This document shows, piece by piece, positions 21,517-43,933 of a stretch of 64,000 nt of DNA. The translations under genes and the position numbers were made by a program. The notes below the pieces were generated by a model. The model searched no databases, had not been told where the DNA came from, and saw only the letters and a program-made list of their open reading frames with translations. The DNA is from Terriglobia bacterium (GTDB taxonomy: Bacteria; Acidobacteriota; Terriglobia; 20CM-2-55-15): the NCBI GenBank assembly GCA_965218585.1, contig CBDCLE010000002.1, positions 448,001 through 512,000 of the forward strand. The letters are read 5' to 3'. Each line of letters begins with the position of its first letter. Position 1 is the first letter of the stretch.

Positions 21517-22453
21517 CCGCGCATTATACCCACGCTCGGGTGATGGGAATACCTGTTGATCGGGTTCTGTAGCGATTGTGTCGGAAGGGAACCGGACCTA
21601 ATCGTCCAGGAACTTGCGGGCGATGTCGACGTCGCACTCTTCATTCGAGTGAGGCATGTTCGGCCTGTACAGCCACTGTCCTGACCATTCTACGGGTTCG
21701 GTCAGGTACTCGGGATCTTCCACCACTCCGGAATAAATCAAGCTCTTGCCGTCTTCGCTGACGCGGAAACGTTCCACGAGGTTTTTCTGTGTGCTTCCGG
21801 GCAGGGAAGTGGAAAGGCCCATGGGATGTGCAATGTAGTTGGTCGTCTCGACAACGAGGACATCGCCCTCCCAGCGTCCTACCGAGTGGCCATGCAGGGA
21901 AGGTCCGGCCCCGGCGAGTCCACTACTCTCGTCCAGGTAGACGACACGCTCGGACTCCATCCAATCAACGTTCATGACCACACGGTCTTCTGCCACCGTA
22001 ATGGTGCTGGCCACGGGGTAGAATATCAGCCCCGGCGCAGCGATGGGAATGCAATCCTTCTGGGGAGTTTCCATCGGATCGACGTTGTCCATGGCCGTTC
22101 TTCCTGTCTCGGTCACAGGCCAGTTCCTTGCTCCGCCCAGGAAGCCAAAGAACTCGCTGCGGGGCGAAAACCACGTCCCTTCAATACTAGTGGCCGTTTC
22201 ATCGCTGGGTTCGTAGATACTGCGAGAGGAAATGTTCAGTGGGTGGTAGCTGCCATCCTGCTTGTACAGTTCTCTTCCCAACATCAATACGTCGGGGTTG
22301 CGACGGCTCGGGTTACCGGCGATGGTTACTACATCCCCAACAGCCACGGAGTCACGTGTGAAACCAAGAGGGTTGAGCACAGACCCGGCTCCGGCTTCGA
22401 CTTCCATCTCGACGCTTTGGCCGTCGTCCCGCTCGACCTGCAGGGTCAGGTAG

Positions 22454-23921
22454 TACTACTATGTTACAAACGGCCTATTTTATGTTAGCATCCGGTCATG
22501 AGCGCCAAATCGAAGGCGCCAGGCACTCAGGAAAAACGTTTTGCGGCCTATTTGGAACGCCTGGCGTCGGCCGCAGGACACGCCGATCGTCATGAACCGT
22601 TGAAGTCGTACTGCACCGGGTTGTTGCTGCCGATCAAACGTAAGAGTGTGGAGCCGATGGCTGCACGATTGGCTCCGGATAATGTACGCCGAATGCACCA
22701 GTCGCTACATCATCTGGTCGCGGATGCGCCCTGGGACGATGCGGCTCTGTTGGCAGAAGTTCGACAGTACGCGCTGGGGGCGATGGAAGCCAACGGTCCG
22801 ATTGAAGCCTGGATTGTCGACGACACCGGATTCGTGAAAAAGGGGACCCACTCGGTGGGTGTGGCCCGGCAATACTGTGGACAGGTCGGCAAACCTGAGA
22901 ACTGCCGGGTGGCGGTGAGCCTGTCGGTGGCGACAGCGAAATCCAGCTTGCCGGTGGCATGGCGACTCTACCTCCCCGAGACCTGGGCGAAGGATCCGGA
23001 ACGTCGAAGCAAAGCCGCTATTCCCGAAGACGTTCGATTTCAAACTAAACCTCAAATTGCTTTGGAACAAATCCGGCAGGCCGTCGATGACGGCATTGCT
23101 CCGGCACCGGTTCTGGGCGATACGGCCTACGGCAACAACTACAAGTTCCGGCACGGCATCACCGAACTCGGACTTAGCTACGTCCTAGGGGTGCAAGGCA
23201 CCACGACCGTGTGGAAACCGGGCCAGGGTCCCTTGCCGCCGAAATCCTTGACCGGCCGCGGACGGACACCGACCCGCATGCAGCGCAACAAGAAACATCA
23301 ACCGGTTTCGGTCAAGCAACTGGCCCTCTCGTTGTCTCCCCAGCGTTGGAAGAACGTCTCCTGGCGCGAAGGCACCTCCGAGACCCTGCGTTCCCGTTTC
23401 GCCGCAGTTCGCATTCGTCCCGCTCATCTGGATCACGAGCGCCACTCGCCGCATCCGAAAGAGTGGTTGTTGGTCGAGTGGCCCAAGACCGCATCCGAAC
23501 CGATCCGGTACTGGCTCTCCACTCTTGGGGCCCATACCTCGCTTTCCGATCTGGCCGGTCAGGCCAAACAGCGCTGGATCATCGAACGCGACTATCAGGA
23601 ACTCAAGCAGGAACTCGGTCTGGGACACTACGAAGGTCGCGGCTGGCGTGGATTTCACCATCATGGCACCTTATGTATTGCCTCTTATGGGTTCCTGGTC
23701 GCCGAGCGGAGCCGTTTTTCCCCCTCTGCATTTGTCGAGCATGTTGGACTATCCGTCCCCAAACTCCCCAAACACTTCAAACCCCGCGGAACCCCGGATC
23801 CGGCCCGAACGACATAACCCCTGCTCGATTGCCACGCTTCGCATTCGCATCGCCCGCTTCCTGATTCAGCAGCTTCCTCGTTGTCCGTTCTGTGGACCGC
23901 TTCGTTTGTAACACAGTAGTA
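22454..23921 (+). mobile_element. IS701 family insertion sequence
   Basis: IRs TACTACTATGTTACAAACG / CGTTTGTAACACAGTAGTA (1 mismatch); GTAG direct repeats at 22450-22453 and 23922-23925. Confidence 0.92.
22498..23817 (+). CDS. IS701 family DDE transposase
   Basis: RKSVEPMA, WIVDDTGFVKKGTHSVGVARQYCG, DTAYG, RWIIERDYQELKQELGLGHYEGRGWRGFHHH. Confidence 0.95.
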   Translation: MSAKSKAPGTQEKRFAAYLERLASAAGHADRHEPLKSYCTGLLLPIKRKSVEPMAARLAPDNVRRMHQSLHHLVADAPWDDAALLAEVRQYALGAMEANGPIEAWIVDDTGFVKKGTHSVGVARQYCGQVGKPENCRVAVSLSVATAKSSLPVAWRLYLPETWAKDPERRSKAAIPEDVRFQTKPQIALEQIRQAVDDGIAPAPVLGDTAYGNNYKFRHGITELGLSYVLGVQGTTTVWKPGQGPLPPKSLTGRGRTPTRMQRNKKHQPVSVKQLALSLSPQRWKNVSWREGTSETLRSRFAAVRIRPAHLDHERHSPHPKEWLLVEWPKTASEPIRYWLSTLGAHTSLSDLAGQAKQRWIIERDYQELKQELGLGHYEGRGWRGFHHHGTLCIASYGFLVAERSRFSPSAFVEHVGLSVPKLPKHFKPRGTPDPARTT

Positions 23922-24124
23922 GTAGACATGCGGGTTTCTAAAGCTGTATTCAAGAATCGTTCCTGAGACTGTAACTTCCTCCCGGACGTCGAAGGCGGCC
24001 GAACTATGGTGCGACAAGGCCTGGGCGGTGGGCATCAGCGAAATCAAACAGGCCAGACTGGAGATACAGAAGGTTTTCATCATCCTCTCCTCGACATTCA
24101 CTTTTGCCATCCTTTTCGTCGATT

Positions 24125-24149
24125 GTGCGGCCATAGAGCGCACCTACAG
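24125..24149 (-). repeat. GTAG-type REP element
   Basis: Plus strand GTGCGGCCATAGAGCGCACCTAC; 21/23 identical to the 33372 copy. Confidence 0.75.
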
Positions 24150-24150
24150 T

Positions 24151-24645
24151 TCACCGGGAGGGATCGGTGGCCAGGTCGACGTATGTTGTCCCGGAAGGGC
24201 CGAAGCCCGTTATCTGGATGACGACGCCCTCGTCACGGGTCGCGGCGAAGTGATTCGAGCCGGGAGGCTCCGTATAGATGCTGCCTGACGGCAACTCTTT
24301 AAGGAGCGTTTCATCAAACGCTTCCCCATAACCGAAGTACCAGGTTCCCGACATGACCGTTGCAACACGATCGTCGGGATGTGAGTGGGCGTCAATCCGC
24401 GTGTCGGGTCCGACGCGGAGAAGCATGGTGTAGAGCCCCCCTTCAGCGGGGTTTCCCTCGAGAATGACAGACTCTATACCTGAAGCGAATGAAGTGCCGA
24501 CCAGCGACGATTGACCGGACGGCCACCGGATTTCACCGGGAGTGACTCTTAGCTCCCCACTCTGTCGGGCCGCCACCTCCAGTCCGCACAAGGCGAGCAG
24601 AACGGTCATAGCGGTCAGCAGAGTTGTTCTTATCGACGCGTTCAT
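24151..24645 (-). CDS. Secreted cupin domain protein
   Basis: Signal peptide; AHSHPDDRVATVMSGTW, TEPPGSNHFA, GFGPSGT. Confidence 0.85.
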   Translation of the reverse strand: MNASIRTTLLTAMTVLLALCGLEVAARQSGELRVTPGEIRWPSGQSSLVGTSFASGIESVILEGNPAEGGLYTMLLRVGPDTRIDAHSHPDDRVATVMSGTWYFGYGEAFDETLLKELPSGSIYTEPPGSNHFAATRDEGVVIQITGFGPSGTTYVDLATDPSR

Positions 24646-25605
24646 CTAGCGCGAACGCGGCTTCCAGTCCCGGCGCCGCCCGTTAGCCTCTTCGATTTCA
24701 TCGGGCGACATCTCGGCAGCGATGGTGTTGCGCATCGCGACTCTGGCCTCGAACTCCACGCCGCCTGCGGACTCGGTCGCCAGATCGACCCACATGTGGG
24801 CCCGGACGTTGTCCGCTCGCACACCTTCACCCTTGTGGTACATCTGGCCGATTTCGTATTGAGCCATGGCGTGTCCCTGTTCGGCAGCCCTTTCGATCCA
24901 CTCGGCGGCATCGCCCAGGTCTATGTCAACGCCTTCGCCGCGGCGGTACATGAGGCCGATATTGAACTGAGCCGTCGAGTTGTCGGATCCGTCGCGGTAG
25001 AAGTCCATCGCCTTTTCAAAGTCCAGATCCACGCCCAGGCCGTTGTGATACATACCGGCAAGGGTGATTATCGCCCCCTCACTACCCTGATCCGCAGCCA
25101 ATTCGAACCACTTCGCTGCTTCTTCGTAATCCAGCTCCCAGCCCGGGCCAGTCCGTGTATAAACGCTCCCCATAAAGGTCTGCGCGTTGACGTCACCCTC
25201 TTCGGCAGGTCTCCTGAGCCACTTCGCTGCCTCCGCAAAGTCCTGTGGCACACCGTTGCCGTCGTGATACAGAAGGCCCAGTCTCAACTGTGAAATCTGG
25301 TCGCCTTGTTCGGCTGCCATCAGAAACCATTTTGCAGCTTCTTCAGGGTTCCTCGCTATATCGAAAGTTCTATCGGGTTCAACGGGGTCGTCTCCTGTGA
25401 GGTAAAGCATTCCGAGTCGCCTCTGCGACCGTACGTCCCCTCTTTCGGCCTGTCTCGCGAATTGCTCGATCGAGTTCGCGCCGATGGCTGTCAGGGCACG
25501 AAGTTCGAACTGCTGTTGAGGGTCTTGAGCCGTGCTGGTTCCGGCAAGCACACCGCTCACGAGAATCACCGTGACAATTACCGAAAAAATGGTTCTGACT
25601 TTCAT
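24646..25605 (-). CDS. SEL1-like repeat protein, secreted
   Basis: Repeated AAKWF..AAEQG..AQ..LG..Y..G.GV; start moved to ATG 25605 with RBS and signal peptide. Confidence 0.9.
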   Translation of the reverse strand: MKVRTIFSVIVTVILVSGVLAGTSTAQDPQQQFELRALTAIGANSIEQFARQAERGDVRSQRRLGMLYLTGDDPVEPDRTFDIARNPEEAAKWFLMAAEQGDQISQLRLGLLYHDGNGVPQDFAEAAKWLRRPAEEGDVNAQTFMGSVYTRTGPGWELDYEEAAKWFELAADQGSEGAIITLAGMYHNGLGVDLDFEKAMDFYRDGSDNSTAQFNIGLMYRRGEGVDIDLGDAAEWIERAAEQGHAMAQYEIGQMYHKGEGVRADNVRAHMWVDLATESAGGVEFEARVAMRNTIAAEMSPDEIEEANGRRRDWKPRSR

Positions 25606-25747
25606 GGAAACCTTCCTCCACCTGAGTTGGAAATCACTGATTGGCATCAGGATACCCGTTTGCGTACTGGGCGCAACAATAAAAGGGCTCTGGTTGCTAA
25701 GATAGCCCCTCGTTTTGTTAATGTTATGGTCGCCGTAGGGTCGACGC

Positions 25748-26278
25748 ATGCGGAATACGCGGACAGACGAATATCTCACAGACGTTCGGGACAGGCTGGG
25801 CAAGTTAAAGGCGCTTGCCGAAGCGGCTCTGGCTCAGGTTGACGACGCGTCTCTCTTCGGAACTCTGGACGAAGAATCCAACAGCATCGCTGTGCTCCTG
25901 AAGCACCTAGCCGGAAACATGCAGTCGCGCTGGGACGGGTTTCCACAAGAAGGAGAGAGCGAATCGTCAAAGCGAAACCGCGATGCAGAATTTGAGGTCG
26001 ATAATGGCGACACAAGGAGAGAACTGATCGCGAAGTGGGAACTGGGCTGGCAGTGTACGTTTGATATGCTCGAACGTCTAACGGAAGACGACATGAATCG
26101 GAGGGTCATCCTCCGGGGGGAGTCCATGTCGGTCATGTCCGCCATCAACCGGCAATTCACGCATTACGCCTACCACATCGGGCAGATTGTTTTCTTAGCG
26201 AAGCATTACTGTTCGGGTCAATGGCAGTCACTGAGTATTCCGCGTGGAAAGTCTGACGAGTTCGCAAAGAATCGGTAG
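25748..26278 (+). CDS. DinB superfamily protein (DUF1572-like)
   Basis: SNSIAVLLKHLAGNMQSRW, RNRDAEFE, HYAYHIGQIVFLAK, SLSIPRGKS. Confidence 0.88.
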   Translation: MRNTRTDEYLTDVRDRLGKLKALAEAALAQVDDASLFGTLDEESNSIAVLLKHLAGNMQSRWDGFPQEGESESSKRNRDAEFEVDNGDTRRELIAKWELGWQCTFDMLERLTEDDMNRRVILRGESMSVMSAINRQFTHYAYHIGQIVFLAKHYCSGQWQSLSIPRGKSDEFAKNR

Positions 26279-26296
26279 GTGCGGACAAGGAGTTTG

Positions 26297-27724
26297 ATGA
26301 CAGAGAGGGTTAATGCTAGCGGAGATGTTGTTCGGTTTATCACCCGGGACCGATTCGATTTTCCACCTGAAGCCCTTCGCCTGGCGAAACGTTGTGTGAT
26401 TGACGGACTCGGCGTCATGCTTGCGGGTTCAACCACGCGAGGAAGCGGAATCGTTCATGACTACGTTCGATCCAGCCAGGGGATTGGGGAGGCGACCGTC
26501 TTCGGATCGAATACATTCCGGACGAGCGCGCCGGCCGCAGCACTGGCCAATGGAGCGAGCGGACACGCCCTGGACTGGGACGATACACAGTTGTCCACGA
26601 GCGCCGACCGGATATTTGGACTGATGACGCACCCAACCGTCCCAGCGTTGGCTGCCGCGCTGGCCCTGGGGGAACGAGGACAGGTGTCCGGGGAACAGTT
26701 CCTGGAAGCCTTTCTGGTCGGGTTCGAAGTCGAATGCAAGATTGCAGAAGCGATTGATCCGAGTCATTACAAGGGAGGTTTTCATTCCTCCGGAACGATC
26801 GGCTCTTTCGGAGCCATGGCCGCTGCGGCGCGGTTGCTCAGGCTCGACGCCGAAGCCACGGCTCATGCTTTATCCATCGTGGCGAGCATGTCTTCGGGAA
26901 TCCGAGTCAACTTCGGAACGATGACCAAACCGCTTCATGTGGGACGCGCGGCCCAGAACGGCGTTACGGCCACCGAGCTGGCTGCGAAGGGATTTACTGG
27001 CGGTGCGGATGGCCTGGACGGCCCGTGGGGTTTCTTCCAGATCTTCAGTTTCGGCAACGGTTTCGATCCGGGCCGAATCGTCGGGCGACTCGGAAATCCG
27101 TATTCGATCGTGACGCCGGGAGTTTCGATCAAACCGTATCCGTGCGGCGTGCTTGGGCATCCCAGCATGGACGCCATGCGGAAGTTGGTGATCGATCACG
27201 ACGTGAAGCCCGAAAACATCTCTGCGATTCGGCTGCGCGCGGGCTCCAACATCCTCAACCCACTGCGGTATCCAATTGCGCACACCGAATTGGAAGCGAA
27301 GTTCTCTCCCGCGTTCATGCTTTCGAGCATCGCATTACGCCGAAAGGCGGGGGTCCGTGAATTTACAGACGAATTTGTTCAGAGCGTTCCTGTTCAGGAA
27401 ATGATGGCCCGGGTCGAAACGATTTTCGATCCCGACATCGAGGCCATGGGCTTTGAAAAAATCCGTAGCACGGTGGAAGTGAGTCTGGAAGACGGAACCC
27501 AACTGGTCCAGGAAGCAGCCGAACAATATCGAGGTGGACCCGACAACCCGTTTACACGCGAAGAGCTTCACGAAAAATTCACCGAGTGCGCCGGGCTCGT
27601 CCTTCCCGAACGAGCGATACAGGGTACACTCAACGCGGTGGAGTCGATAGAAAATCTGTCCGACGTCAACGAACTGGTAGGCCTCCTGACCGAGGGCGTC
27701 GCTTCAACCGTGGGGAAACAGTGA
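26297..27724 (+). CDS. MmgE/PrpD family protein
   Basis: AALANGASGHALDWDD, HP, GFHSSG, GTMTKPLHVG, KPYPCG, EAKFS; ATG 26297 after AGGAG. Confidence 0.92.
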   Translation: MTERVNASGDVVRFITRDRFDFPPEALRLAKRCVIDGLGVMLAGSTTRGSGIVHDYVRSSQGIGEATVFGSNTFRTSAPAAALANGASGHALDWDDTQLSTSADRIFGLMTHPTVPALAAALALGERGQVSGEQFLEAFLVGFEVECKIAEAIDPSHYKGGFHSSGTIGSFGAMAAAARLLRLDAEATAHALSIVASMSSGIRVNFGTMTKPLHVGRAAQNGVTATELAAKGFTGGADGLDGPWGFFQIFSFGNGFDPGRIVGRLGNPYSIVTPGVSIKPYPCGVLGHPSMDAMRKLVIDHDVKPENISAIRLRAGSNILNPLRYPIAHTELEAKFSPAFMLSSIALRRKAGVREFTDEFVQSVPVQEMMARVETIFDPDIEAMGFEKIRSTVEVSLEDGTQLVQEAAEQYRGGPDNPFTREELHEKFTECAGLVLPERAIQGTLNAVESIENLSDVNELVGLLTEGVASTVGKQ

Positions 27725-28959: not shown

Positions 28960-28969
28960 TTCCAAATTC

Positions 28970-29908: not shown

Positions 29909-29917
29909 CTGGGGGCA

Positions 29918-29998: not shown

Positions 29999-30012
29999 GA
30001 CTGCTTTGGTTT

Positions 30013-33396: not shown

Positions 33397-33407
33397 AAGT
33401 CCTTCTC

Positions 33408-34744: not shown

Positions 34745-34772
34745 AATCTTCTCGTGGTGTCTTTCGATTCTG

Positions 34773-35807: not shown

Positions 35808-35839
35808 TCTTCTCCTGATCTCTTAGTTGGGACCCGCTC

Positions 35840-37036
35840 CTACTCGAGCTGCCCGCGCACCCATTCCAGCTCCCGGCAGACATAGTCGACAATGTCTCCC
35901 GTCTTTAGATGGTCGGGCAGCACGTCCCACGTATAGGTTTCGATCTCGAGTTGACGCGACAACGGGTTCTTCTTGTGGAATGCGAGAGCGTCCTCGATGG
36001 CAAAGCGGGTCGTACGGAACGCACCGAGATCGTCCAGAAAGACCGGCACGTGGATGTGCGTGCGCCATTCCCTTGGCCCGGGATCCGTTTTCCAGGCGGC
36101 GAAGGCGTCTTCCAGGTTGAGAAACCGGTTAAAGCGTCCATCCTTCTTTTCGATCGTCTGGGTGAGATAAATTGTCTCTGCATACCGTGCGAGTTCATCG
36201 ACGATCTCCTCGGTCACCTCGGGAACGTATACCGCTGCCGCCTCCTGTAACTTGAAAATCGGAATGCCGGCGTCCACCAGCTTCTGCAAGGACACGGAAA
36301 TGTCTTCGTACTCGACCGCCTGATGGCAGATGTCGAAGACCACACCGAGATGGTTACGCAGGGCGACGTGTGCTTCCGATATCGGAATGCCTGCAAGTCT
36401 TGCGACTGTTGCTGCCGCCGCGCCCGAGTAGAGATGATTGGTGAAGTAATCGACGGCCTCGTCCGTCGTTTCCAGAAAGCAAAAAGGCTCTGGTTCGAGC
36501 GCAAGCCCGACCCTCCGCCCGGTCCGTGCCTCCAGTTCTACAAGGTGCGCGGCCACACGGAGCACGTGCTCGGTAAAGCTGGAAACAACGTCCGGGCCCG
36601 TCACCCGGGGCTTGAAGCCGAGCGGCGCGCTCTGAATCGATGGTGCCGTCCCAACTGGCGCGACATCTCCAAGAACTTCGGCGACATTGATCGTGTACTG
36701 AGTGCGCTCCTCAGAACGCCAGTCCGGTTCGTAGACGCGTTCCTTCACGATGCCCCCCTTGAAGGGTCCATAGGGGAAGGCGTTCACCGTGTAGAGGTAC
36801 ATGTCGTTGTCGTCGAGGAATTTCTTGAGATCGTTGCGCGCGGATTGATCCCGAACCAGGGTTTCGGCCGATGAGGCGGAAAGCCTCAGGGAAATTCCGA
36901 AAGTGTCATTGGGAGCAAACCGCGCTTTTACTTGTGGGCCATACTCGACAAGGCTCGCCCACATCTCATCCCAGGTATCGCCGGGATGGACGAGAGTCGA
37001 GTAGGTCAGAAGGCCGAGGCCGTTACCCAGGTCCAT
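35840..37036 (-). CDS. eboE: EboE-like TIM-barrel protein
   Basis: LTYSTLVHPG, TVNAFPYGPF, VKERVYEPDW, LALEPEPFC, DICHQAVEYE, WRTHIHVPVF, LEIETYTWDVLP, RELEWV; start ATG 37036. Confidence 0.85.
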   Translation of the reverse strand: MDLGNGLGLLTYSTLVHPGDTWDEMWASLVEYGPQVKARFAPNDTFGISLRLSASSAETLVRDQSARNDLKKFLDDNDMYLYTVNAFPYGPFKGGIVKERVYEPDWRSEERTQYTINVAEVLGDVAPVGTAPSIQSAPLGFKPRVTGPDVVSSFTEHVLRVAAHLVELEARTGRRVGLALEPEPFCFLETTDEAVDYFTNHLYSGAAAATVARLAGIPISEAHVALRNHLGVVFDICHQAVEYEDISVSLQKLVDAGIPIFKLQEAAAVYVPEVTEEIVDELARYAETIYLTQTIEKKDGRFNRFLNLEDAFAAWKTDPGPREWRTHIHVPVFLDDLGAFRTTRFAIEDALAFHKKNPLSRQLEIETYTWDVLPDHLKTGDIVDYVCRELEWVRGQLE

Positions 37037-37053
37037 TGATCTTTCGGACCCCT

Positions 37054-37935
37054 TCAGTCCAGGCCGCAGGCGCGTGCCTGTTCGAGGGCGAGCACGGCCC
37101 AATCTCTATCGCCATCGCCATGAGCCACGGCACTCAGTATCCGGTCGCGATAGACATTGACGCTCGGCAGGGGAACGCGTGCGACGTCGGCCGCTTCCAT
37201 GACCAGGTTCACGTCCTTCAGGCCCAATATCGTCGGGAAACCTGGCGCGTCCCAGGATTCATCGACCATGATCTTTCCGTAGACCTGGTAAGCGGGCGCT
37301 GCAAACAGACCTCCCGTCATTACATTGAACATGACCTCGGGTTTGACGTCGTACTTTCTTACCAGCGAGAACGCTTCGGCCATCGCTTCGATAGCGCAGC
37401 CCAATACGAAATTGTTGGTCAGTTTGATCGCGTTGGCAGCCTCGGGTCTCAAGCCGGCATCGAACGTGCCTTTGCCCATCGCATCGAACAGCGGTTTGCA
37501 TTTCGCGACGGCTTCAGCGGGTCCGGCGGGAACGATTCCGAGCTGGCCTGTTGCCGCAAGGTCGGGGCGTCCCAGAACGGGTGCAGCCACCAGGATTTGA
37601 TCCGATTCCTTATGGGCTTCGTCGAGAGCATGGACGACTTTGACACCGTGGGTACCCATCACGACATGAATCGAGCCAGCTGCCAAAGAGTCGCGTATGC
37701 CTCCGGTTTCGAGTGTCACTTTTTCGAGAATCGCATCTTCGGTGAGCATCGTGATGACGACTTCGCTCCCTGCACAGGCCTCCGAGACCGACGACGCCAC
37801 CTGTGCACCTGCTTTTGCCAGGTCTGCCGTTGCTTCGGGTATGACGTCATAAACCTTGAGCTCATGACCCGCGCCCAGGATCTGGCCCGACATTCCGCTG
37901 CCCATGCGACCCAGGCCAAAAAAACCGACTTTCAT
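37054..37935 (-). CDS. NAD(P)-dependent oxidoreductase, 3-hydroxyisobutyrate dehydrogenase family
   Basis: GFFGLGRMG, APVLGRP, KLTNN, LGLKDV. Confidence 0.9.
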   Translation of the reverse strand: MKVGFFGLGRMGSGMSGQILGAGHELKVYDVIPEATADLAKAGAQVASSVSEACAGSEVVITMLTEDAILEKVTLETGGIRDSLAAGSIHVVMGTHGVKVVHALDEAHKESDQILVAAPVLGRPDLAATGQLGIVPAGPAEAVAKCKPLFDAMGKGTFDAGLRPEAANAIKLTNNFVLGCAIEAMAEAFSLVRKYDVKPEVMFNVMTGGLFAAPAYQVYGKIMVDESWDAPGFPTILGLKDVNLVMEAADVARVPLPSVNVYRDRILSAVAHGDGDRDWAVLALEQARACGLD

Positions 37936-37964
37936 AATGCTTACCTCCAGAAAATATTAAATCG

Positions 37965-38369
37965 TCAGTCTCTCCCGGGCGTACCCCAGTTGAGCACCAT
38001 CCCGTCTTCTTTAATAACCTCGCTCCAGATGCCTGCGGGTCTCCCGTCCCTCATCGGCCGCGCGGTGATCGTAATCCGGTCGCCGGCCTGGAGGTCGTTC
38101 TTGAACACTCCGCCGCGAACCAGGATGCTCGGTCCTTCAGCCTCGAATCCCCAGGTCTGGGTCGAACCGTCCTCGTCAGTGACATCCACAATTAGCCAGG
38201 AATGGGGGTTAACATACTGAAATTCCTTAACCACGCCCTCGACGGTGATCGTCTTCTCACGTTCGAACATTTCGCCGGAGTGGTGCGCTGCGCCGGATCC
38301 TGCGTGGAACAGTAGAACCGCCGCTACGAATGAGGCAATGGACATTACTCTGAAATGTGACGCTCTCAC
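37965..38369 (-). CDS. DUF6152-like small exported protein
   Basis: Signal peptide then AAHHS, FQYVNPHSWLIVDV, W.FE, GDRITITARP.RDG. Confidence 0.8.
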   Translation of the reverse strand: MRASHFRVMSIASFVAAVLLFHAGSGAAHHSGEMFEREKTITVEGVVKEFQYVNPHSWLIVDVTDEDGSTQTWGFEAEGPSILVRGGVFKNDLQAGDRITITARPMRDGRPAGIWSEVIKEDGMVLNWGTPGRD

Positions 38370-38373
38370 TTGG

Positions 38374-39306
38374 TTAGTCCTCCTCCTGTATGTCGTCTAC
38401 GTCCGTAAAATCGAAATCGGTATGATTGGAGCCTCCCCCTTGGGTCCGCGTAATAGCATTGTTTGGGTTGTCGCATTCCCAGAAATGGATCCGGAGCGGC
38501 ATGCCCTCGAAAGGTTGAACTTCCTTATCGTATATCTGTCGCGTGAACCACGGTTCTTCCAATGCTTCGGGGTCGTATAACCAAACGTCGGCCTGCATTG
38601 TTTCCTCGTTGATTTTCTCCCAGATCTCGACCCCCTCGATCTGATCACTGAAGTACGGTTGCATCCGCGACATCCAACCTTCCTTTACATGCCTCGTGTA
38701 TGTGATCAGGCGGTCGCCGTCCCAGATTCCAATGGTGTCTCCGTCCTCAGAGGGAAAAGCGATTTCTTCGGGTGTATGATCCCGGCCATCGGTGTAAATG
38801 CGTCGAACCTCATTCTGGGCCTCGTTCAGAATCCATGTCTGGTGGGTCATGATCGCGAACTCCCAGGGGCGTGGATTCCGGATGTTACCCGGATAGCCGC
38901 GGGGCACGCCACAGGCACTGGTCTCGTCATAGACACGTCCTTCCAGCGCATTGTCGACGCGTTCCTGCATCAGGCCTACGTATCGGCCCTTTAGTCTGGC
39001 GGTGGGGACAAAGCCCGGCCCCTGATCCGGATCGTACTGCGCGGCTGAGGCATCGCGTTCCCACAGGCCCGTCCAGTCGGGAATCTCTTCGAGCGTCAGT
39101 GTCCTGTCTTCGATACCCGCAGTGAGTGTTTCGTAAAGTTCCCCTGCTGTATCGAATTGTTTCCCAAAATCAATCAGTTCCTGTTTCTCTTCTGTCCAAT
39201 TTGGGCCAGCGGACCGGCCGGACTGTGCGTCGGCCGACATCGAACCGATCGTTGGGAGAATCAGGAGCAAGACAACGCTCCCGGCGGTCTTTCTCATGCC
39301 GTTCAT
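38374..39306 (-). CDS. Exported hypothetical protein (DUF6152 partner domain)
   Basis: Signal peptide; PDWTGLW, SACGVP, RRIYTDGRDH, GDTIGIWDGD, DPEAL.EPW, WECD; start ATG 39306 after AGGAGGAG. Confidence 0.75.
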   Translation of the reverse strand: MNGMRKTAGSVVLLLILPTIGSMSADAQSGRSAGPNWTEEKQELIDFGKQFDTAGELYETLTAGIEDRTLTLEEIPDWTGLWERDASAAQYDPDQGPGFVPTARLKGRYVGLMQERVDNALEGRVYDETSACGVPRGYPGNIRNPRPWEFAIMTHQTWILNEAQNEVRRIYTDGRDHTPEEIAFPSEDGDTIGIWDGDRLITYTRHVKEGWMSRMQPYFSDQIEGVEIWEKINEETMQADVWLYDPEALEEPWFTRQIYDKEVQPFEGMPLRIHFWECDNPNNAITRTQGGGSNHTDFDFTDVDDIQEED

Positions 39307-39467
39307 GCTCTCCTCCTTTCGAACATCGTTCACAAGCGTGACGAGGACTATAGCATGCGTTTCAGACCTTTCGAGATATAATGGCCGCCGCGTTTATCCT
39401 TACTTAATTAAGACAAGCGGAAGCAGAAACGTTCGGAGAAGGTGTGCGGTTTTTGGAAGGAGTGATC

Positions 39468-41456
39468 ATGAAAAAACGATCTTATTTGTGTGTATTGGCG
39501 GTGCTGGCTCTGACGTTCGGATGCTCTGGCCCCACAGTCGATTCAGCTACGGACGGAGAGGATCAGGCGGCTCTGGAGCGGATCGTTTTCTCGTCGTTGC
39601 GGCCCAGTAACTGGGATATTTTTCACTTCGAAAGCCCCGGAGCGGAGCCCAGGCGGCTTACCGATCATCCTGGTCTCGACTACGATGCAGAGTTTTCTCC
39701 CGACGGCCGCTGGGTGATCTTCACATCCGAAAGACGCGGCAATCCCGATCTCTTTGTGATCGATCTCGCCGAAGGCGGCGAGCCGCGGCTGTTGATAGAC
39801 AGTCCGATGATGGAAGACCAGGCGACCATCTCTCCGGACGGGCTGACCATAGCCTTTGTCAGTACACGTGACGGGAATTCCGACATCTTCTCAATGCCGT
39901 TCGATCCGGACACGACGCAACGAATGGACGCTGCGGAAAACCTCACCGAGAATCCGCGTGGCGATTTCCGACCCGCCTTCTCACCCAACGGCGAGCGTAT
40001 CGCATTCTCTTCGGACCGCGACATTCCTGCATACGGACACCCCGTCTTCGGCTTTACCCGTCAGCGGGACGGTCAGGTCTACGTGATGGACGCCGACGGG
40101 GAAAACCAGCAGCGGCTGACTGAAGAGGGCAACTGGAACGGTTCGCCCGAGTGGTCCCCCGACGGTGAGATGATCTATTTCTATTCCGACAGCCCGCGCG
40201 AGGTGGAAGGTCCCCCGACCAGCCCGATACTTGGACAGGAGGGTGGATTCCGAATCTGGACGATCAACGCGGACGGATCGAACCCGCAAGCCCTCACGCC
40301 CGAGGGTGTCGAAGCCCTTGCGCCGGCCTTGACGCCGGATGGACGCCTTGCGTTCCAGACACGTAGTGGATACGCAGACTGGTCAATCCAGTCGGTCAAT
40401 CTCGACGGGTCGGATTCGCGTCTCGAGAGCGCCGAGGGCAACAACTACTGGATACCCGACTACGACGCCGAAAGCGGCGCCATGGTCAGCCATGGCGTCG
40501 GGCCTGTTTTCGGAACCAGTCAGGCGGTGGAGGACGTTCTGGGGGCCGGAGCCTTGCTGGCGGCGGACTATCCGGTCGACGTAGAGTTGGGAGACCGTTC
40601 AGTGACGGTTTATCCGATGCGTCACACTTCGGGCCTGGCCCCACATCCGTTTTCGAATGAAGTCTTGACAACTATCGAGAATCAAGCAGGAACCCGCCTC
40701 GTGACAGCCGATTTTGACGGAGCGAATCAACGGGAACTCCTCGAAGAAGCGGGAATCGGCATCATCGCGGAAGAGGGCCTGGGATTCCGTTTGTACGACA
40801 TGAAGTGGTCTGAGGACGGGGACTGGATTACGTATACGCGTGGCGTATTCGTCGGCAGCGCCACGGACTACTCAGACATCTGGATCTCGCGCAGGGATGG
40901 CAGCGACCGAGTTAATTTGACCAATACTGAAGCCAACGACGGTGTGGCGGCTTTTTCACCTGACGGTGAGCGAATGGTCTTTCGCAGTTCGCGAAACGGC
41001 AGTTTTGATTTGTATTTGATGAATACCGACGGCAGCAATCTCGTGCAACTGACCGATGATGCGGCAAGAAACAATTTTCCGGCCTTCTCGCCGGACGGGA
41101 ATTCGATCGTTTTTGCTTCAGACCGTGACAGCGAAGTAGATAGGTTCGGATACCGCACCTTTGACAATTACATCCTGGAACTCTTGCCCGACGGGAGTCC
41201 CGGAGAGATTCAACGTATTTCCTTTGATTCCGGCCAGGACGCCCATCCCGCGTATTCGCCCGATGGCGAGTGGATCATCTATGTTTCAGAACAGGCCGGC
41301 ATCACCGATGAAGAACCCCTTGTGCAAGAGGTGGTGTTCGGTCCTCAGATGTATGGGGAAATCTTTGCTTACAGGCTAGCCGATGGCCTGAGCGTACGCC
41401 TGACGCACAACAAGTGGGAAGAAGGCGTTCCGTTCTGGTTGCGCCCTGCCGAATAA
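39468..41456 (+). CDS. TolB-like PD40 beta-propeller lipoprotein
   Basis: TFGC lipobox; many P.FSPDG..I.F.S.R.G repeats. Confidence 0.88.
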   Translation: MKKRSYLCVLAVLALTFGCSGPTVDSATDGEDQAALERIVFSSLRPSNWDIFHFESPGAEPRRLTDHPGLDYDAEFSPDGRWVIFTSERRGNPDLFVIDLAEGGEPRLLIDSPMMEDQATISPDGLTIAFVSTRDGNSDIFSMPFDPDTTQRMDAAENLTENPRGDFRPAFSPNGERIAFSSDRDIPAYGHPVFGFTRQRDGQVYVMDADGENQQRLTEEGNWNGSPEWSPDGEMIYFYSDSPREVEGPPTSPILGQEGGFRIWTINADGSNPQALTPEGVEALAPALTPDGRLAFQTRSGYADWSIQSVNLDGSDSRLESAEGNNYWIPDYDAESGAMVSHGVGPVFGTSQAVEDVLGAGALLAADYPVDVELGDRSVTVYPMRHTSGLAPHPFSNEVLTTIENQAGTRLVTADFDGANQRELLEEAGIGIIAEEGLGFRLYDMKWSEDGDWITYTRGVFVGSATDYSDIWISRRDGSDRVNLTNTEANDGVAAFSPDGERMVFRSSRNGSFDLYLMNTDGSNLVQLTDDAARNNFPAFSPDGNSIVFASDRDSEVDRFGYRTFDNYILELLPDGSPGEIQRISFDSGQDAHPAYSPDGEWIIYVSEQAGITDEEPLVQEVVFGPQMYGEIFAYRLADGLSVRLTHNKWEEGVPFWLRPAE

Positions 41457-41458
41457 GA

Positions 41459-41652
41459 GAGGGACGGACACTTCAGAATTGGATTTGGCCCCGCGACTGG
41501 GATCGAATCCTGAAGCATCCCTCCGCTAGCATCCAGCTCGATTTTCATTTGAGAGATAGCTACTTCAAGGCCGATAGTACTTTCGGAATCACCTGGATCG
41601 CTCTTTTCGAAAAAGAAAGGAAAATCTTCCTGAGACCTCAATTCTGAAGTCC
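41459..41652. repeat. Degenerate GGGACRG-family element with long spacer (copy E)
   Basis: Left arm GAGGGACGGACACTTCAGAATTG resembles the copy B arm; right arm CAATTCTGAAGT-CC at 41639-41652. Confidence 0.6.
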
Positions 41653-41668
41653 GGCTTCGGGATCCACC

Positions 41669-42642
41669 ATGAGACATTCCGTAACCGGCCGCTGGCGACT
41701 GGGCCTGTCCCTGGCAGTTGTTGCCATGCTGACATGGGCCACGCTGCCTGTAGCCTTGACCCTTGCCCTTGTCTACGTCGATCCGTGGACGCTGACCTGG
41801 TTCCGATTCCTTGTGGCGACCCTGGTCTTGAGTCTGTGGCTGCGAAGGCGGGGTATCCTTGCCAGGACGGGCACCCGTCCCGGTCGGGGAGCCTGGCCTC
41901 TCCTGTTGATCGCAGCAGTCACGTTGACGGCCAATTACATGCTCTACATACTGGGCCTCGAACTGACGACTCCGGCCGTTGCACAGGTGTTGATCCAACT
42001 GGCGCCCGTGTTGATGGGGTTGGGCGGAATCTGGCTGTTCGGGGAGCGCTATTCGACTTCCCAGTGGATGGGATTCGCCGTTCTGGTCACTGGCCTCGTT
42101 GTATTCTTCCGAAACCAATTGGAAGCGTTCGCTGCGAGTGCCGACGAGCTGTGGCAGGGAGCTTTGCTCATAACGATCGGAGCGGTGGCGTGGGCGGTCT
42201 ATGCGATGGCTCAGAAACAGCTGCTCAAGGATTATTCTTCAGTCGCCGTCATGGTCTTCATTTACGTTTTCGCGACGATAGCGATCTTCCCGGCCACAGA
42301 ACCCATGACGTTACTCTGGTTGGTCCCTGCCGCCTGGCCCATCGTTGTCTACTGCGCGCTCAACACACTGATTGCTTACAGTTTTCTTTCGCCGAAGCAC
42401 TGAATCACTGGGAAGCCTCGAGGGTGAGCGCCGTTCTGGCACTGACTCCGCTGGGAACACTCGCTTTCGCGGCGACTGTGGAGCGTTTCTATCCCGGAGT
42501 GCTTCCGCCCGAACGTCTCGGCTGGGTGAGCCTGGTGGGTGCGGGACTGGTTGTCGTGGGATCGATCCTGACCAGTCTCACGGGCCGTAAAGCTGGTCCC
42601 GACGGGGTGGTACAGGCTGCTAGGGGTGATGCTGGTAGTTGA
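41669..42642 (+). pseudogene. EamA/DMT transporter, frameshifted
   Basis: Frame ends ALNTLIAYS; continues FAEALNHWEASRVSAV in another frame; shift at the T run near 42382-42385. Confidence 0.8.
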
Positions 42643-42997
42643 AGCCACTGCCCCGGTGGTCGAGCCTCCGAATATAGAGGGCATTCGGTTCCCTGCGGGA
42701 CGGGTTACCTACCACCACTATCCGATCTCCGGGCCTGAGCGTTTCGGCTTCGAAACCGACTTCGGCCAACTCCCGGCGGTTGTCCATTTACAGCCTCCAG
42801 GATTGGACCGCGCCTCCAGACTCTTCAACTTCGATCGTCACAAACGGATGAGGATTGACGAACTCGAACCGGACGACCAAACCTTCAAGCGTGGCTTCCT
42901 TTGCACGATCATAGACGGCAGCGATCGAGTGGTGTGCACTCGCGCCGAGTGAGAGGACGAGTCCGATGCAGATTGCGGAGAAGATCCAGAGCTTCAT
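42620..42997 (-). pseudogene. DUF6152-like protein with internal TAA
   Basis: SAHHS...NPHPFVTIEV...WRL*MDNRRELAEVGF..LRPGDRIVVVGNPSR continues in frame to TAG at 42622-42620; stop at the conserved Glu position. Confidence 0.85.
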
Positions 42998-43135
42998 TGT
43001 GGGCTAAGATTTTATCGCAACCAGGGCCGGGCCGCACGTTCTGTAGTCGGGGTGGAGATTCGCTTCGGTCTACCGTGCCTTGGAAGTTTGTGGTAGAAAC
43101 GATTAAAAGTGTCCACCGATTATCGAGGAGGAGAG

Positions 43136-43933
43136 ATGATGAAGGGGAACCAAAAGTTTTGCCTCAAGATGGTTGTCGCTGCCGTGTTTCTGCTGTGGCT
43201 GGCCGGTAGCCCACAAACAGGTCTGTCAGTGCAGTTGCCTGGTGCCAGTCCCGACGTCCCAGATCTCAACGGTGTCTGGAACAGGCAAGGTTGCATGTCT
43301 AACGGTGTGACCTGTCCGTGGGTTGTATCTGAGCTGCCGTTGCGAGCCCGTGCACTCGGGTTCCGCGAAGCTTTTGACGAACATGCGCTACCGAAATACG
43401 ACTGCGTGCCGCCGACTGTTCCCGCCATCATCGTCGATCCGCTCCTGTGGCAGATAGAGCAGCTGGAAGACCGTGTCCTTATTTCCTACGAGCATAACGA
43501 TGTCGTACGCACGATCTGGTTAAGAGGTCATGGGCATCCGGGACTCGAGGTCACCGACTTTTTCCAGCAGGGTCACGCTGTAGGCTGGTACGAGAACGAG
43601 CAACTTGTGATCGAGACCACCCGCTTCACGTTCGATCCTCATGGTCTGGATGACATGGCGGATCTACCCTCCTCGACACAGAAGAAAGTCACCGAGCGTT
43701 ACTGGTTAGAAGGAGAAGACTTGCGTGCTGACGTCCTCACCGAGGACCCATTGTTTCTGACCGAGCCCGTTCTGTTGGAGGAGAGATTCCGATCCACAGA
43801 CCAGCCGATGACTCTGCCTTACGGTTGCGATCCCGAACTGGCGCGGCAGCCTCTGCAGTTCGTTCCGTCAATCTATATTGAGCCGGGATTCATCCGGATA
43901 CCGGTGACGCCTCATGGTGAGGCGCCACGGTAA
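43136..43933 (+). CDS. Exported hypothetical protein (DUF6152 partner domain)
   Basis: PDLNGVW, YDCVP, RTIWL, GHAVGWYENEQLVIETT, SSTQKKVTERY, EDPLFLTEP, GCD. Confidence 0.8.
   Translation: MMKGNQKFCLKMVVAAVFLLWLAGSPQTGLSVQLPGASPDVPDLNGVWNRQGCMSNGVTCPWVVSELPLRARALGFREAFDEHALPKYDCVPPTVPAIIVDPLLWQIEQLEDRVLISYEHNDVVRTIWLRGHGHPGLEVTDFFQQGHAVGWYENEQLVIETTRFTFDPHGLDDMADLPSSTQKKVTERYWLEGEDLRADVLTEDPLFLTEPVLLEERFRSTDQPMTLPYGCDPELARQPLQFVPSIYIEPGFIRIPVTPHGEAPR

What the first reader, a model, noticed from the sequence alone, without database searches (positions are those of the whole stretch)
21598..43933. Top candidate: two-part exported His-His/NPH (DUF6152-like) + Cys-pair partner module in three architectures
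Seen: component 1 (signal peptide, then HHS, V.G.V..F.(Y/F).NPH, GD.I...(G/A).P.R) occurs at 37965-38369, 42620-42997 and as the N-domain of 21598-24083. Component 2 (G.W, C..P, R.(I/V)(Y/W), G(H/D)..G.(W/Y)....L...T, S.Q....E, DP..L.EP, CD) occurs at 38374-39306, 43136-43933 and as the C-domain of 21598-24083. Every copy of one sits beside the other: operon, divergent pair and fusion. Known: an N-terminal His exposed by signal cleavage is the Cu ligand in CopC, LPMO and YcnI histidine-brace-type sites. Inference: an obligate periplasmic heterodimer with a metal site (His1/His2 plus NPH His) and a disulfide-stabilised beta-barrel partner, acting as a paralog-expanded redox enzyme or solute-binding system. 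Two copies neighbour catabolic dehydrogenases. I know of no characterised function.
Basis: partly seen in the sequence, partly recalled or inferred. Interest (0 to 1): 0.8.

Follow-up and report, generated by a model that had tools for sequence, protein, structure and literature searches.

The report
Secreted His-His protein plus barrel partner
The window holds three copies of an unstudied, widespread two-part secreted module, a small protein that should start with two histidines (a likely metal site) teamed with an unnamed barrel protein that probably holds a small molecule; only one copy is intact.

Summary
Component 1 is Pfam DUF6152. Component 2 is one unnamed family with no Pfam or NCBIfam match.

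The window "fusion" is a true fused gene, split by an IS701-family element (22454-23921). The 42620-42997 copy carries an in-frame TAA, also present in an assembly from a second study. Only the operon 37965-39333 is intact.

- **Copy number:** this 4.55 Mb genome has 72 DUF6152 and 118 partner ORF pieces.
- **Pairing:** 56 of 72 DUF6152 pieces are fused to a partner or within 600 bp of one, against 3.4 expected by chance.
- **Other species:** 77 of 79 partner loci carry DUF6152 immediately downstream.
- **Related genomes:** the two families are present or absent together across 31 genomes.
- **Evolution:** paired paralogues co-diversify (Mantel r 0.60).

Models give an OB fold for DUF6152, with invariant His-His at the predicted signal-peptide cut and a third invariant His. 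The partner models as a FABP-like ten-strand barrel.

I favour a periplasmic metal centre working on a ligand held in the barrel. No metal binding, complex formation or activity is shown. The complex predictor was unavailable.

This scan has noted the same module before on other DNA (208 notes, at least 107 genomes). I found no paper on it.

The parts
37965..38369 (-). Intact DUF6152 gene (P0001, 134 aa from the GTG; an ATG lies at 38345). Leader ends ...GSGAA, followed by HHS; NPH at residues 54-56.
   Evidence: Pfam PF19649 E 1.1e-30. AF2 model pLDDT 88.5, OB fold. Invariant H29, H30, P55, H56, G96 in 94 sequences.
38374..39333 (-). Intact barrel-partner gene (P0002; probable ATG start at 39306). 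It lies directly upstream of the DUF6152 gene with a 4-nt gap.
   Evidence: No Pfam or NCBIfam match. Homologous to P0003 at E 5e-9. 256 homologues, all named hypothetical or unnamed.
42620..42997 (-). DUF6152 copy with an in-frame stop; divergent from the barrel gene at 43109.
   Evidence: Translation. Pfam match on both halves. 1 TAA inside the match.
42788..42790 (-). In-frame TAA codon inside the DUF6152 copy.
   Evidence: A contig of run X2 (a different study) covers 40080-43950 with 0 differences, and an X3 contig covers 42725-43219 with 0 differences.
43109..43933 (+). Barrel-partner gene (P0003; probable ATG start at 43136), apparently intact.
   Evidence: AF2 model pLDDT 85.3. FABP/CRBP-like barrel: VIA Z 9.6, rmsd 2.3 over 105 residues; Foldseek E 2.6e-4. 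267 homologues without any family.
23922..24083 (-). N-terminal piece of the fused gene: signal peptide, HHS, start of DUF6152 up to NPHVY. 23922-23925 is one copy of the GTAG duplication.
22454..23921 (.). IS701-family insertion sequence with 19-nt terminal inverted repeats (18 of 19 matching). Transposase ORF 22498-23817 on the + strand.
   Evidence: NF033540 E 3.1e-130, 434.7 bits against a cut-off of 150. Inverted repeats. 23 full-length copies at 99-100% identity in the genome, this one included. Empty site seen in paralogous contig C6.
21598..22453 (-). C-terminal piece of the fused gene: rest of DUF6152 (GD.V...GNPSR) followed by the barrel domain in one frame. 22450-22453 is the other GTAG copy.
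   Evidence: P0004 vs P0003 E 1e-20. DUF6152 profile positions 41-91 at C2:470300-470452.

Best explanation
This is a self-contained periplasmic two-part module, encoded as two adjacent genes or as one fused gene.

Part 1 (DUF6152) is a small OB-fold protein. Signal-peptidase cleavage should leave His-His as its first two residues. These, with the invariant His of the NPH loop 27 residues later (and possibly the near-invariant Glu76), would form a transition-metal site on an N-terminal arm outside the OB core.

Part 2 is an unnamed exported barrel with the topology of fatty-acid- and retinol-binding proteins, probably tied by one disulfide. It would hold a small, probably hydrophobic or amphipathic, molecule.

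I propose that the OB subunit docks on the barrel, so that a constant metal centre acts on a ligand whose identity is set by the variable barrel. That would make a family of metal-dependent periplasmic enzymes, oxidative or hydrolytic, radiated into many paralogues for catabolism of diverse small organic compounds.

Shown by computation: the two families, their export signals, their linkage (adjacency, fusion, co-diversification, joint presence and absence), the folds and the invariant residues. Inferred: the cleavage site, metal binding, docking, ligand binding and catalysis.

In this window only the operon 37965-39333 is intact. The fused copy is knocked out by an IS, and the third DUF6152 carries a stop codon.
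For: **Linkage**
- 56 of 72 DUF6152 ORF pieces are fused (13) or within 600 bp of a barrel domain: 20 upstream, 19 downstream, 3 divergent, 1 convergent. Chance expectation is 3.4.
- 77 of 79 barrel loci from other species (Gammaproteobacteria, Acidobacteriota, Gemmatimonadales, Rhodospirillales, Hyphomicrobiales MAGs) have DUF6152 directly downstream. The 2 exceptions end at a contig end.
- In 31 related genomes the same 16 carry both families and 14 carry neither. One has only a sub-threshold DUF6152 hit.
- For 47 pairs, distance matrices correlate at r 0.60, with 0 of 2000 permutations reaching it (maximum 0.156). Nearest paralogue is concordant in 27 of 47.

**Metal-site logic**
- H29, H30, P55, H56 and G96 are the only invariant columns in 94 diverse DUF6152 sequences. 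A28 (position -1), N54, W73 and E76 are at least 90% conserved.
- In 67 genome copies, position -1 is A, S or G in 66, and a hydrophobic core is present in 65.
- N-terminal His after signal cleavage is an experimentally validated predictor of metal binding in other families (PMC12537917; Results part 1 read).

**Folds**
- DUF6152 is an OB fold: Z 9.0-9.2, rmsd 2.5-2.8 over 81-84 residues. The alignment starts at residue 37, so the His-His arm is an extension.
- The partner is a ten-strand barrel with helices between strands 1 and 2, closest to CRBP, FABP and UnaG (Z 9.0-9.6), with nitrobindin at Z 7.9.

**Constant site, variable barrel**
- Paired barrels have a median identity of 23%, while the His triad is invariant.

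**Context**
- MBL-fold hydrolases, amidohydrolases, PQQ dehydrogenases, dienelactone hydrolases and glyoxalase-fold proteins lie around the modules.
- 24 of 46 MBL-like ORFs lie within 300 bp of a module ORF and 27 of 46 within 1500 bp, where the genome fraction is 8.7%.
Against: - No metal binding, complex or activity is shown.
- The complex predictor was unavailable.
- SignalP was not run; the cleavage site rests on the -3/-1 rule.
- The OB fold is not a scaffold of any known histidine-brace protein.
- The barrel does not always need DUF6152: 61 of 118 barrel pieces are more than 600 bp from one. Its conserved core (R134, G155, T170, S189, E196, D213) is equally kept in orphans.
- No redox partner travels with the module. 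CopD has 0 matches in this genome. By eye, only about one of 27 cytochrome c domain matches lies near a module.
- Flanks of the pair in 16 foreign loci share no third gene.
- Co-diversification can arise from duplication as a unit, without physical contact.
- Two of the three window modules are broken, so single copies are dispensable.
- The only RNA hint is one metatranscriptome contig, 92% identical, over 37930-38196. This does not show transcription of this gene.
Confidence: 0.45

Rival explanations
1. Non-catalytic binding and shuttle pair. The barrel captures a hydrophobic nutrient or lipid in the periplasm. The DUF6152 subunit, with or without a metal, acts as a lid or a docking adaptor to a shared transporter or enzyme. 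The many paralogues would resemble the expanded orphan solute-binding families of other bacteria.
For: The closest structural relatives of the barrel are carriers, not enzymes (CRBP, FABP, bile-acid-binding protein). Modules sit in catabolic gene neighbourhoods the way binding proteins do. A TonB-dependent receptor or related outer-membrane barrel lies near the pair, mostly upstream, in 4 of 16 foreign loci. Barrels often occur without DUF6152.
Against: An invariant His-His/His triad across 94 diverse sequences is hard to explain for a mere lid. No membrane transporter gene travels with the pair. Outer-membrane receptor-like ORFs are only weakly enriched in this genome: 4 of 17 within 1500 bp against a genome fraction of 8.7%.
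Confidence: 0.3
2. Metal capture or metal trafficking. DUF6152 would be a periplasmic metal chaperone or scavenger, like CusF or the 'anglerase', DUF4198 and DUF6702 proteins. The barrel would bind a metallophore or hand the metal on.
For: Exposed N-terminal His proteins characterised so far are mostly metal binders or sequesterers rather than enzymes (PMC12537917; abstract and Results part 1 read). That some lipocalins bind siderophores is recalled, not tested; murine siderocalin appears as a weak match at Z 6.0.
Against: 72 and 118 copies per genome, and at least 112 DUF6152 matches (the cap) in 7 of 30 related genomes, is far beyond any metal-homeostasis need. No metal transporter, regulator or CopD lies nearby. 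The neighbours are catabolic enzymes.
Confidence: 0.1
3. The two proteins do not touch. They are merely co-regulated secreted proteins that duplicate together.
For: Co-duplication alone can produce adjacency and mirrored trees. No interface has been predicted or measured.
Against: There are 13 single-ORF fusions in this genome, always DUF6152 then barrel. The pair is conserved across phyla with both gene orders. Presence and absence are strictly joint in 30 of 31 genomes.
Confidence: 0.05

Closest known systems
Pfam DUF6152 (PF19649), family of unknown function
   Same: Component 1 is a member by score (106 bits against a cut-off of 27) and has the family's NPH motif.
   Different: Pfam gives no function and no partner. 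The His-His at the signal-peptide cut, the OB fold and the obligatory-looking barrel partner are additions from this analysis.
Histidine-brace copper proteins (LPMOs, CopC, YcnI). Definition taken from the abstract of PMC10952591 in the search listing.
   Same: A secreted protein whose predicted mature N-terminus is His, with a further conserved His available as a second ligand.
   Different: The fold is OB, not a beta-sandwich. There are two consecutive N-terminal His. This genome has no CopD partner. Metal identity and geometry are unknown.
N-terminal-His metalloproteins found by 'signal strapping' (DUF4198 Ni-binding protein, DUF6702, Ang-1/Ang-2; PMC12537917)
   Same: The same logic applies: signal-peptide cleavage exposes His as a chelator, and the families are of unknown function.
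   Different: DUF6152, OB folds and lipocalins are not mentioned in that paper's main text (0 occurrences). Its supplementary lists could not be seen. Those proteins have no barrel partner and no comparable paralogue expansion.
Intracellular lipid-binding proteins (FABP, CRBP, bile-acid-binding protein, UnaG) and the wider calycin superfamily (nitrobindin, lipocalins)
   Same: Ten antiparallel strands with a helical insert between strands 1 and 2. Best matches are CRBP IV at Z 9.6 (rmsd 2.3, 105 residues) and LBP-8 at Z 9.5.
   Different: No sequence-family match. The protein is exported rather than cytosolic and about twice as long. It has a conserved Cys pair and its own conserved core (R134, S189, E196, D213), and it is teamed with DUF6152.
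Lipocalin-like cap domains of beta-lactamase-fold hydrolases (D-aminopeptidase 1ei5, Pyrococcus PBP homologue 2qmi, Ulm16 8fek)
   Same: These are calycin-type barrels that work next to a catalytic module. They appear among the structural matches at Z 6.8, 6.1 and 5.5. The barrel family here is enriched beside MBL-fold hydrolases.
   Different: Those barrels are covalently attached domains of serine hydrolases. Here the barrel is a separate exported protein, or is fused to DUF6152. Reading them as cap domains is my recollection of those structures, not a test.
SSB/PriB-type OB folds
   Same: The best structural matches of DUF6152 (Z 8.5-9.2).
   Different: Those proteins are cytoplasmic DNA binders. 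DUF6152 is exported and shows no SSB sequence match at E up to 0.1. The resemblance is in fold only.

Membership tests
Pfam DUF6152 (PF19649) | Profile score above the gathering cut-off (27 bits) | tested here: met
   P0001 scores 106.1 bits. The fusion N-piece scores 38.4 bits and the first part of the TAA copy 50.4 bits.
Pfam DUF6152 (PF19649) | Conserved NPH motif, and His-His at the start of the domain | tested here: met
   H29, H30, P55 and H56 are invariant in 94 sequences. All three window copies have HHS and NPH.
Histidine-brace copper proteins (LPMO, CopC, YcnI) | His as residue 1 of the mature protein | tested here: inconclusive
   The leader ends in A, S or G at -1 directly before His-His in 66 of 67 genome copies, and 65 of 67 have a hydrophobic core. 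SignalP was not run and there are no protein data.
Histidine-brace copper proteins (LPMO, CopC, YcnI) | Beta-sandwich (Ig-like or cupredoxin-like) scaffold | tested here: not met
   The model is an OB fold. The top 50 rows of all three fold searches are OB-fold proteins.
Histidine-brace copper proteins (LPMO, CopC, YcnI) | Cu held by the N-terminal amine and imidazole plus a second His in T-shaped geometry | not testable with these tools
   Model coordinates are not readable and there is no metal modelling.
CopC/CopD-type copper uptake pair | A CopD membrane partner in the genome | tested here: not met
   PF05425 has 0 matches in this 95.5%-complete genome, while 6 of 14 control genomes match.
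Intracellular lipid-binding proteins / calycins | Ten-strand antiparallel barrel with a helical insert after strand 1 | tested here: met
   DSSP of the model shows strand 55-59, helices 80-109, then nine or more strands from 114 to 230. CRBP IV matches at Z 9.6, rmsd 2.3 over 105 residues.
Intracellular lipid-binding proteins / calycins | Sequence-family membership (Pfam lipocalin/FABP models, or PDB sequence relatives) | tested here: not met
   No Pfam or NCBIfam family at E up to 0.1 for P0002, P0003 or P0004. A profile of 117 sequences finds no PDB chain at E up to 1.
Intracellular lipid-binding proteins / calycins | Binds a hydrophobic ligand inside the barrel | not testable with these tools
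   Neither cavity nor ligand could be examined.
SSB/PriB OB-fold DNA-binding proteins | Cytoplasmic ssDNA binding and SSB-family sequence | tested here: not met
   A signal peptide is present. No SSB Pfam hit at E up to 0.1. Only the fold is shared.
CusF-type periplasmic OB-like copper chaperones | Sequence-family match, or a top structural match | tested here: inconclusive
   No Pfam hit and not among the 50 rows shown. A family that is not listed is not excluded.
IS701-family insertion sequence (the interrupting element) | IS701 transposase, terminal inverted repeats, short target duplication, multiple copies | tested here: met
   NF033540 scores 434.7 bits against 150. Terminal inverted repeats. 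4-bp GTAG duplication and an empty site in C6. 23 full-length copies.

The most novel reading that the evidence does not exclude
DUF6152 plus its barrel partner form a new class of periplasmic two-subunit (or fused) metalloenzymes. An OB-fold subunit carries a mononuclear metal on an N-terminal His-His arm plus the NPH His. An FABP-like subunit presents the substrate. Environmental Gammaproteobacteria, Acidobacteriota and Gemmatimonadota have radiated this pair into roughly a hundred paralogues per genome, to oxidise or hydrolyse a wide range of small organic compounds outside the cytoplasm.
Probability: 0.3. Interest if true: 0.9.

Novelty: categorically new. Interest (0 to 1): 0.7.

Why it matters
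The two domain families occupy 2.2% of this genome's bases (99,228 of 4,553,436 nt). DUF6152 reaches at least 112 matches per genome in 7 of 30 related genomes. It has 8,667 representative clusters at 50% identity in public data. Yet neither part has a known function, and the barrel has no family name.

If the His-His arm binds a metal and acts on ligands held in the barrel, this would be a new metalloprotein scaffold. It would also be a large, untapped set of periplasmic catalysts or carriers in soil and marine bacteria, relevant to turnover of organic matter and xenobiotics.

The prediction is cheap to test: a metal screen on one pair, P0001 and P0002.

Tried and rejected
Binding therefore rests on fusion and adjacency only.
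- **Reading His-His distances from the model:** no coordinate files reach the script box.
- **Cluster member look-up** for names and sources: switched off.
- **Longer fused relatives of P0001 by word search:** none of 304 candidates scored. The tool itself calls this weak evidence. Fusions clearly exist in this genome and among representatives, for example 302 and 377 aa.
- **PDB by sequence profile:** nothing for either family.
- **Atlas:** only unnamed clusters at 0.96. The nearest named clusters, DUF3471 and DUF6152-containing, score 0.79.
- **TonB-dependent receptor association in this genome:** 4 of 17 within 1500 bp, weak.
0 CopD in this genome.
- **Cytochrome c association:** 27 domain matches. 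By eye only one, at C4:193293, lies within about 1.6 kb of a DUF6152 copy. This was not counted by script.
- **Close DNA relatives of the 42560-43960 locus** in 12 related genomes: none above 72% identity. The TAA could therefore not be checked in sister genomes. It was checked in run contigs instead.
- **Reading the TAA as a recoded codon:** rejected. It is a single TAA in one of 74 matches, and all other listed copies are open.
- **Conserved third gene next to the pair in 16 foreign loci:** none found.
- **Expression:** only a 92%-identical RNA-library contig over part of the intact DUF6152 gene. This is no evidence that the gene itself is transcribed.
- **Literature:** 'DUF6152' gave 0 papers and 'PF19649' 0. 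'histidine brace' plus 'OB-fold' gave 0. Two broader searches found nothing on this module.

Full report
**1. What is in the window**

- *Component 1.* The ORF 37965-38369(-) (P0001) matches Pfam DUF6152 at E 1.1e-30, 106 bits against a cut-off of 27. The N-terminal piece at 23685-24083 matches at E 1.3e-9. The first part of 42620-42997 matches at E 2.4e-13.
- *Component 2.* P0002 (38374-39333-), P0003 (43109-43933+) and the C-terminal two thirds of P0004 (21598-22407-) match no Pfam or NCBIfam family at E up to 0.1.
- *One family.* They are homologous to each other: P0003/P0004 E 1e-20, P0002/P0003 E 5e-9, P0002/P0004 E 0.002.

**2. Two of the three modules are broken**

*The fused gene.* The "fusion" is one gene interrupted by an insertion sequence.
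- The + strand ORF 22498-23817 is an IS701-family transposase (NF033540, E 3.1e-130).
- The element runs from 22454 to 23921, with 19-nt terminal inverted repeats (junctions read).
- It is flanked by GTAG at 22450-22453 and at 23922-23925.
- The genome holds 23 full-length copies at 99-100% identity, this one included.
- A paralogous contig (C6, a diverged copy of the same neighbourhood) shows the uninterrupted site, with the two flanks overlapping by 4 bp. That copy is itself cut by a different transposase-bearing insertion about ten codons upstream.
- Without the IS and one GTAG, the two pieces add to 1014 nt (337 codons plus stop) in frame. The fusion of DUF6152 with the barrel is therefore genuine. 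P0004 alone already carries the end of DUF6152 and the whole barrel in one frame.

*The TAA copy.* The copy 42620-42997 has an in-frame TAA at 42788-42790.
- A contig from a run of a different study (X2) covers 40080-43950 with no difference.
- A contig of X3 covers 42725-43219 with no difference.
- The stop is therefore not an error of one assembly.

Only the operon 39333-37965 is intact: barrel gene, a 4-nt gap, then the DUF6152 gene.

**3. The pairing is real and general**

*Copy numbers.* Pfam DUF6152 finds 74 matches in the window's genome (4.55 Mb, 26 contigs, 95.5% complete), 70 of them over the cut-off. It finds none in 14 control genomes. Profiles built from the genome's own copies find 72 ORF pieces with DUF6152 and 118 with the barrel domain. 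These are pieces, so a split gene counts twice.

*Adjacency in this genome.* Of the 72 DUF6152 pieces:
- 13 are fused with a barrel in one ORF, always DUF6152 first;
- 20 lie just upstream and 19 just downstream on the same strand;
- 3 are divergent and 1 convergent.

That makes 56 within 600 bp, against 3.4 expected for random placement. Conversely, 57 of 118 barrel pieces are within 600 bp of DUF6152, 21 at 600-3000 bp, and 40 further away or on a contig without one.

*Co-diversification.* For 47 near-full-length pairs, the two distance matrices correlate with r 0.60. None of 2000 permutations reached this (maximum 0.156). The nearest paralogue is the same for both partners in 27 of 47.

*Other species.* 79 loci encoding relatives of P0003 came from MAGs of Gammaproteobacteria, Acidobacteriota, Gemmatimonadales, Rhodospirillales and Hyphomicrobiales. 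In 77 of them DUF6152 follows directly on the same strand. The other 2 loci end at the contig end.

*Related genomes.* In 31 related genomes, DUF6152 over its cut-off and the barrel profile are found in the same 16. Fourteen have neither, and one has only a sub-threshold DUF6152 hit.

**4. Anatomy of DUF6152**

*Leader and cleavage site.* In 67 of 72 genome copies, a leader with a basic start and a hydrophobic core ends directly before HH[S/T/A/G/N].
- Position -1 is A (50), S (9), G (7) or P (1).
- Position -3 is mostly A, V, L, G or T.
- 65 of 67 have a hydrophobic core and 65 of 67 have a K or R before it.

*Invariant residues.* In 94 diverse family members the only invariant columns are H29, H30, P55, H56 and G96. 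A28, S31, G45, N54, W73, E76, G87, P105, G109 and G123 are at least 90% conserved.

*Fold.* The AlphaFold model (pLDDT 88.5, pTM 0.75) is an OB fold.
- Best matches are SSB and PriB proteins, at Z 9.0-9.2 with rmsd 2.5-2.8 over 81-84 residues. Foldseek gives E 5.4e-4.
- The aligned core starts at residue 37. The His-His therefore sits on an N-terminal arm outside the barrel, and NPH lies in the loop between strands 1 and 2.

*Family size.* There are 8,667 representative clusters at E up to 0.001.

**5. Anatomy of the partner**

*Export and fold.* P0002 and P0003 start with signal-peptide-like leaders. The model of P0003 (pLDDT 85.3, pTM 0.76) has one strand, a helical segment, and then nine to ten strands.

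*Structural matches.*
- CRBP IV: Z 9.6, rmsd 2.3 over 105 residues.
- LBP-8 Z 9.5, SAHS Z 9.3, the Oplophorus luciferase 19-kDa protein Z 9.2, UnaG Z 9.0, nitrobindin Z 7.9, Rv0813 Z 7.1.
- Foldseek agrees, with CRBP1 at E 2.6e-4.

*Conserved residues.* Across the 118 genome copies the best conserved are G55, W57, C99, R134, G155, L166, T170, S189, E196, D213, P214 and C240 (renumbered).
- The Cys pair is present in 55 and 52 of 57 partnered copies, and in 29 and 28 of 40 orphans.
- R134, T170, S189, E196 and D213 are kept equally in partnered and orphan copies. They therefore belong to the barrel's own function, not to DUF6152 docking.

*Homologues.* All homologues found (267 for P0003, 256 for P0002) are unnamed or "hypothetical protein", without Pfam domains.

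**6. Context**

*In the window.* The intact operon is followed 30 nt downstream by a 3-hydroxyisobutyrate-dehydrogenase-like gene (37054-37935). Further on lie a GFO/IDH/MocA oxidoreductase and a MetE-like gene. P0003 is followed by an aldehyde dehydrogenase (44153-45613) and a bicupin.

*Module-rich stretches.* In six module-rich 20-kb stretches of the genome, the neighbours are MBL-fold proteins, amidohydrolases, PQQ dehydrogenases, dienelactone and alpha/beta hydrolases, glyoxalase-fold proteins and DoxX.

*MBL-fold proteins.*
- 24 of 46 lie within 300 bp of a module ORF, and 27 of 46 within 1500 bp. 8.7% of the genome lies within 1500 bp of a module ORF.
- 25 of 46 have a canonical HxHxDH, as do 13 of the 24 adjacent ones.

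*Other candidates.*
- Outer-membrane receptor-like ORFs are only weakly enriched (4 of 17).
- CopD is absent.
- Two of four DoxX genes abut a module.

*Foreign loci.* In 16 foreign loci (87 flanking ORFs scanned) no third gene is shared. A TonB-dependent receptor or related barrel lies near the pair in 4 of them.

**7. How it most likely works**

*The favoured reading.* Fusion, tight operons in both gene orders, joint presence and absence, and co-diversification all argue that the two proteins act together, most simply as a complex. The only invariant side chains of DUF6152 are three histidines, two of them at the predicted mature N-terminus. An exposed N-terminal His is a proven metal chelator in other secreted families (PMC12537917). 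A constant His site combined with barrels that share only about 23% identity resembles an enzyme family with a fixed catalytic centre and variable substrate pockets. I therefore favour a metal centre on the OB subunit acting on a ligand held by the FABP-like barrel, serving periplasmic catabolism (confidence 0.45).

*Rivals.*
- A non-catalytic carrier pair (0.3).
- Metal capture (0.1).
- Mere co-regulation (0.05).

*What is missing.* Nothing here shows metal binding, contact between the proteins or chemistry. Half of the barrels live without DUF6152.

**8. Comparison with what is known**

- Component 1 is a member of DUF6152.
- It works like, but is not a member of, the histidine-brace families. 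The N-terminal His is predicted, the scaffold test fails (OB fold rather than beta-sandwich), and CopD is absent.
- The partner has the fold of intracellular lipid-binding proteins but fails every sequence-family test. It is also exported.
- No PDB chain is related by sequence to either part.

**9. Novelty**

*Literature.* No paper in the held library contains "DUF6152" or "PF19649". Three further searches found nothing on such a module.

*Earlier notes in this scan.* The scan has described the same module on other DNA (208 notes in at least 107 genomes). Those notes agree on the fold assignments and on the MBL link. One note says the MBL partner is degenerate. Here about half of the adjacent MBLs keep the canonical motif. 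Another links the module to CopD, which this genome lacks.

*Not done.* Complex prediction (tool unavailable), SignalP, inspection of model coordinates and cluster-member names.

Noticed in passing
window 22454-23921, and the genome at large: The IS701-family element that splits the fused gene has 23 full-length copies at 99-100% identity plus many fragments in a 4.55 Mb genome (40 matches in all). This points to a recent burst of transposition. One further copy lies just past the window's end, at C2:512440-513914.
   Followed up: partly
G000:C6:8600-13400: Contig C6 carries a diverged second copy of the window's neighbourhood 20641-25803: Sel1-repeat gene, cupin, fused DUF6152-barrel gene, xylose-isomerase-like gene. 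Its fused gene is cut by a different transposase-bearing insertion about ten codons upstream of the window's IS site. It could be a duplicated region or a second strain in the assembly (contamination 3.3%).
   Followed up: partly
window 41669-42642: The EamA-family transporter gene next to the TAA-bearing DUF6152 copy appears frameshifted. The EamA match sits in ORF 41669-42403, and the membrane-like C-terminal continuation sits in the overlapping frame 41734-42642. An independent run contig covers 40080-43950 without any difference, so the shift is not an error of one assembly.
   Followed up: partly
genome-wide, e.g. L115:525-2832 and L115:10618-12993: MBL-fold genes are strongly enriched next to the modules: 24 of 46 within 300 bp. 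They include three-gene runs of MBL, DUF6152 and barrel, and tandem arrays of barrel genes (L115:12031-17361). 13 of the 24 adjacent MBLs keep HxHxDH.
   Followed up: partly
L111:12845-14004, L113:16930-18405, L115:10618-11636, L110:11269-12268: Several genes in module-rich regions are split into two ORFs: a Cys/Met PLP enzyme, an FMO-like monooxygenase and two MBL genes. This suggests many pseudogenes or indel errors in this assembly.
   Followed up: no
G000:C3:4000-54000: A 50-kb hot spot holds ten DUF6152 copies, six of them fused with the barrel. They are interleaved with amidohydrolases, MBL-fold genes, a PQQ dehydrogenase, two DoxX genes and two transposases.
   Followed up: partly
window 43109-43933 compared with L031-L109: In 77 of 77 informative foreign loci, the P0003-type barrel gene is followed by DUF6152 on the same strand. 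In the window the only nearby DUF6152 is upstream and divergent (and broken), while an aldehyde dehydrogenase follows the barrel gene. A local rearrangement is likely. The broken copy's best foreign matches are the DUF6152 genes of those loci (33-46% identity).
   Followed up: partly
window 35840-37102 (-): A 420-aa ORF with no Pfam family lies between the dehydrogenase genes downstream of the intact module.
   Followed up: no
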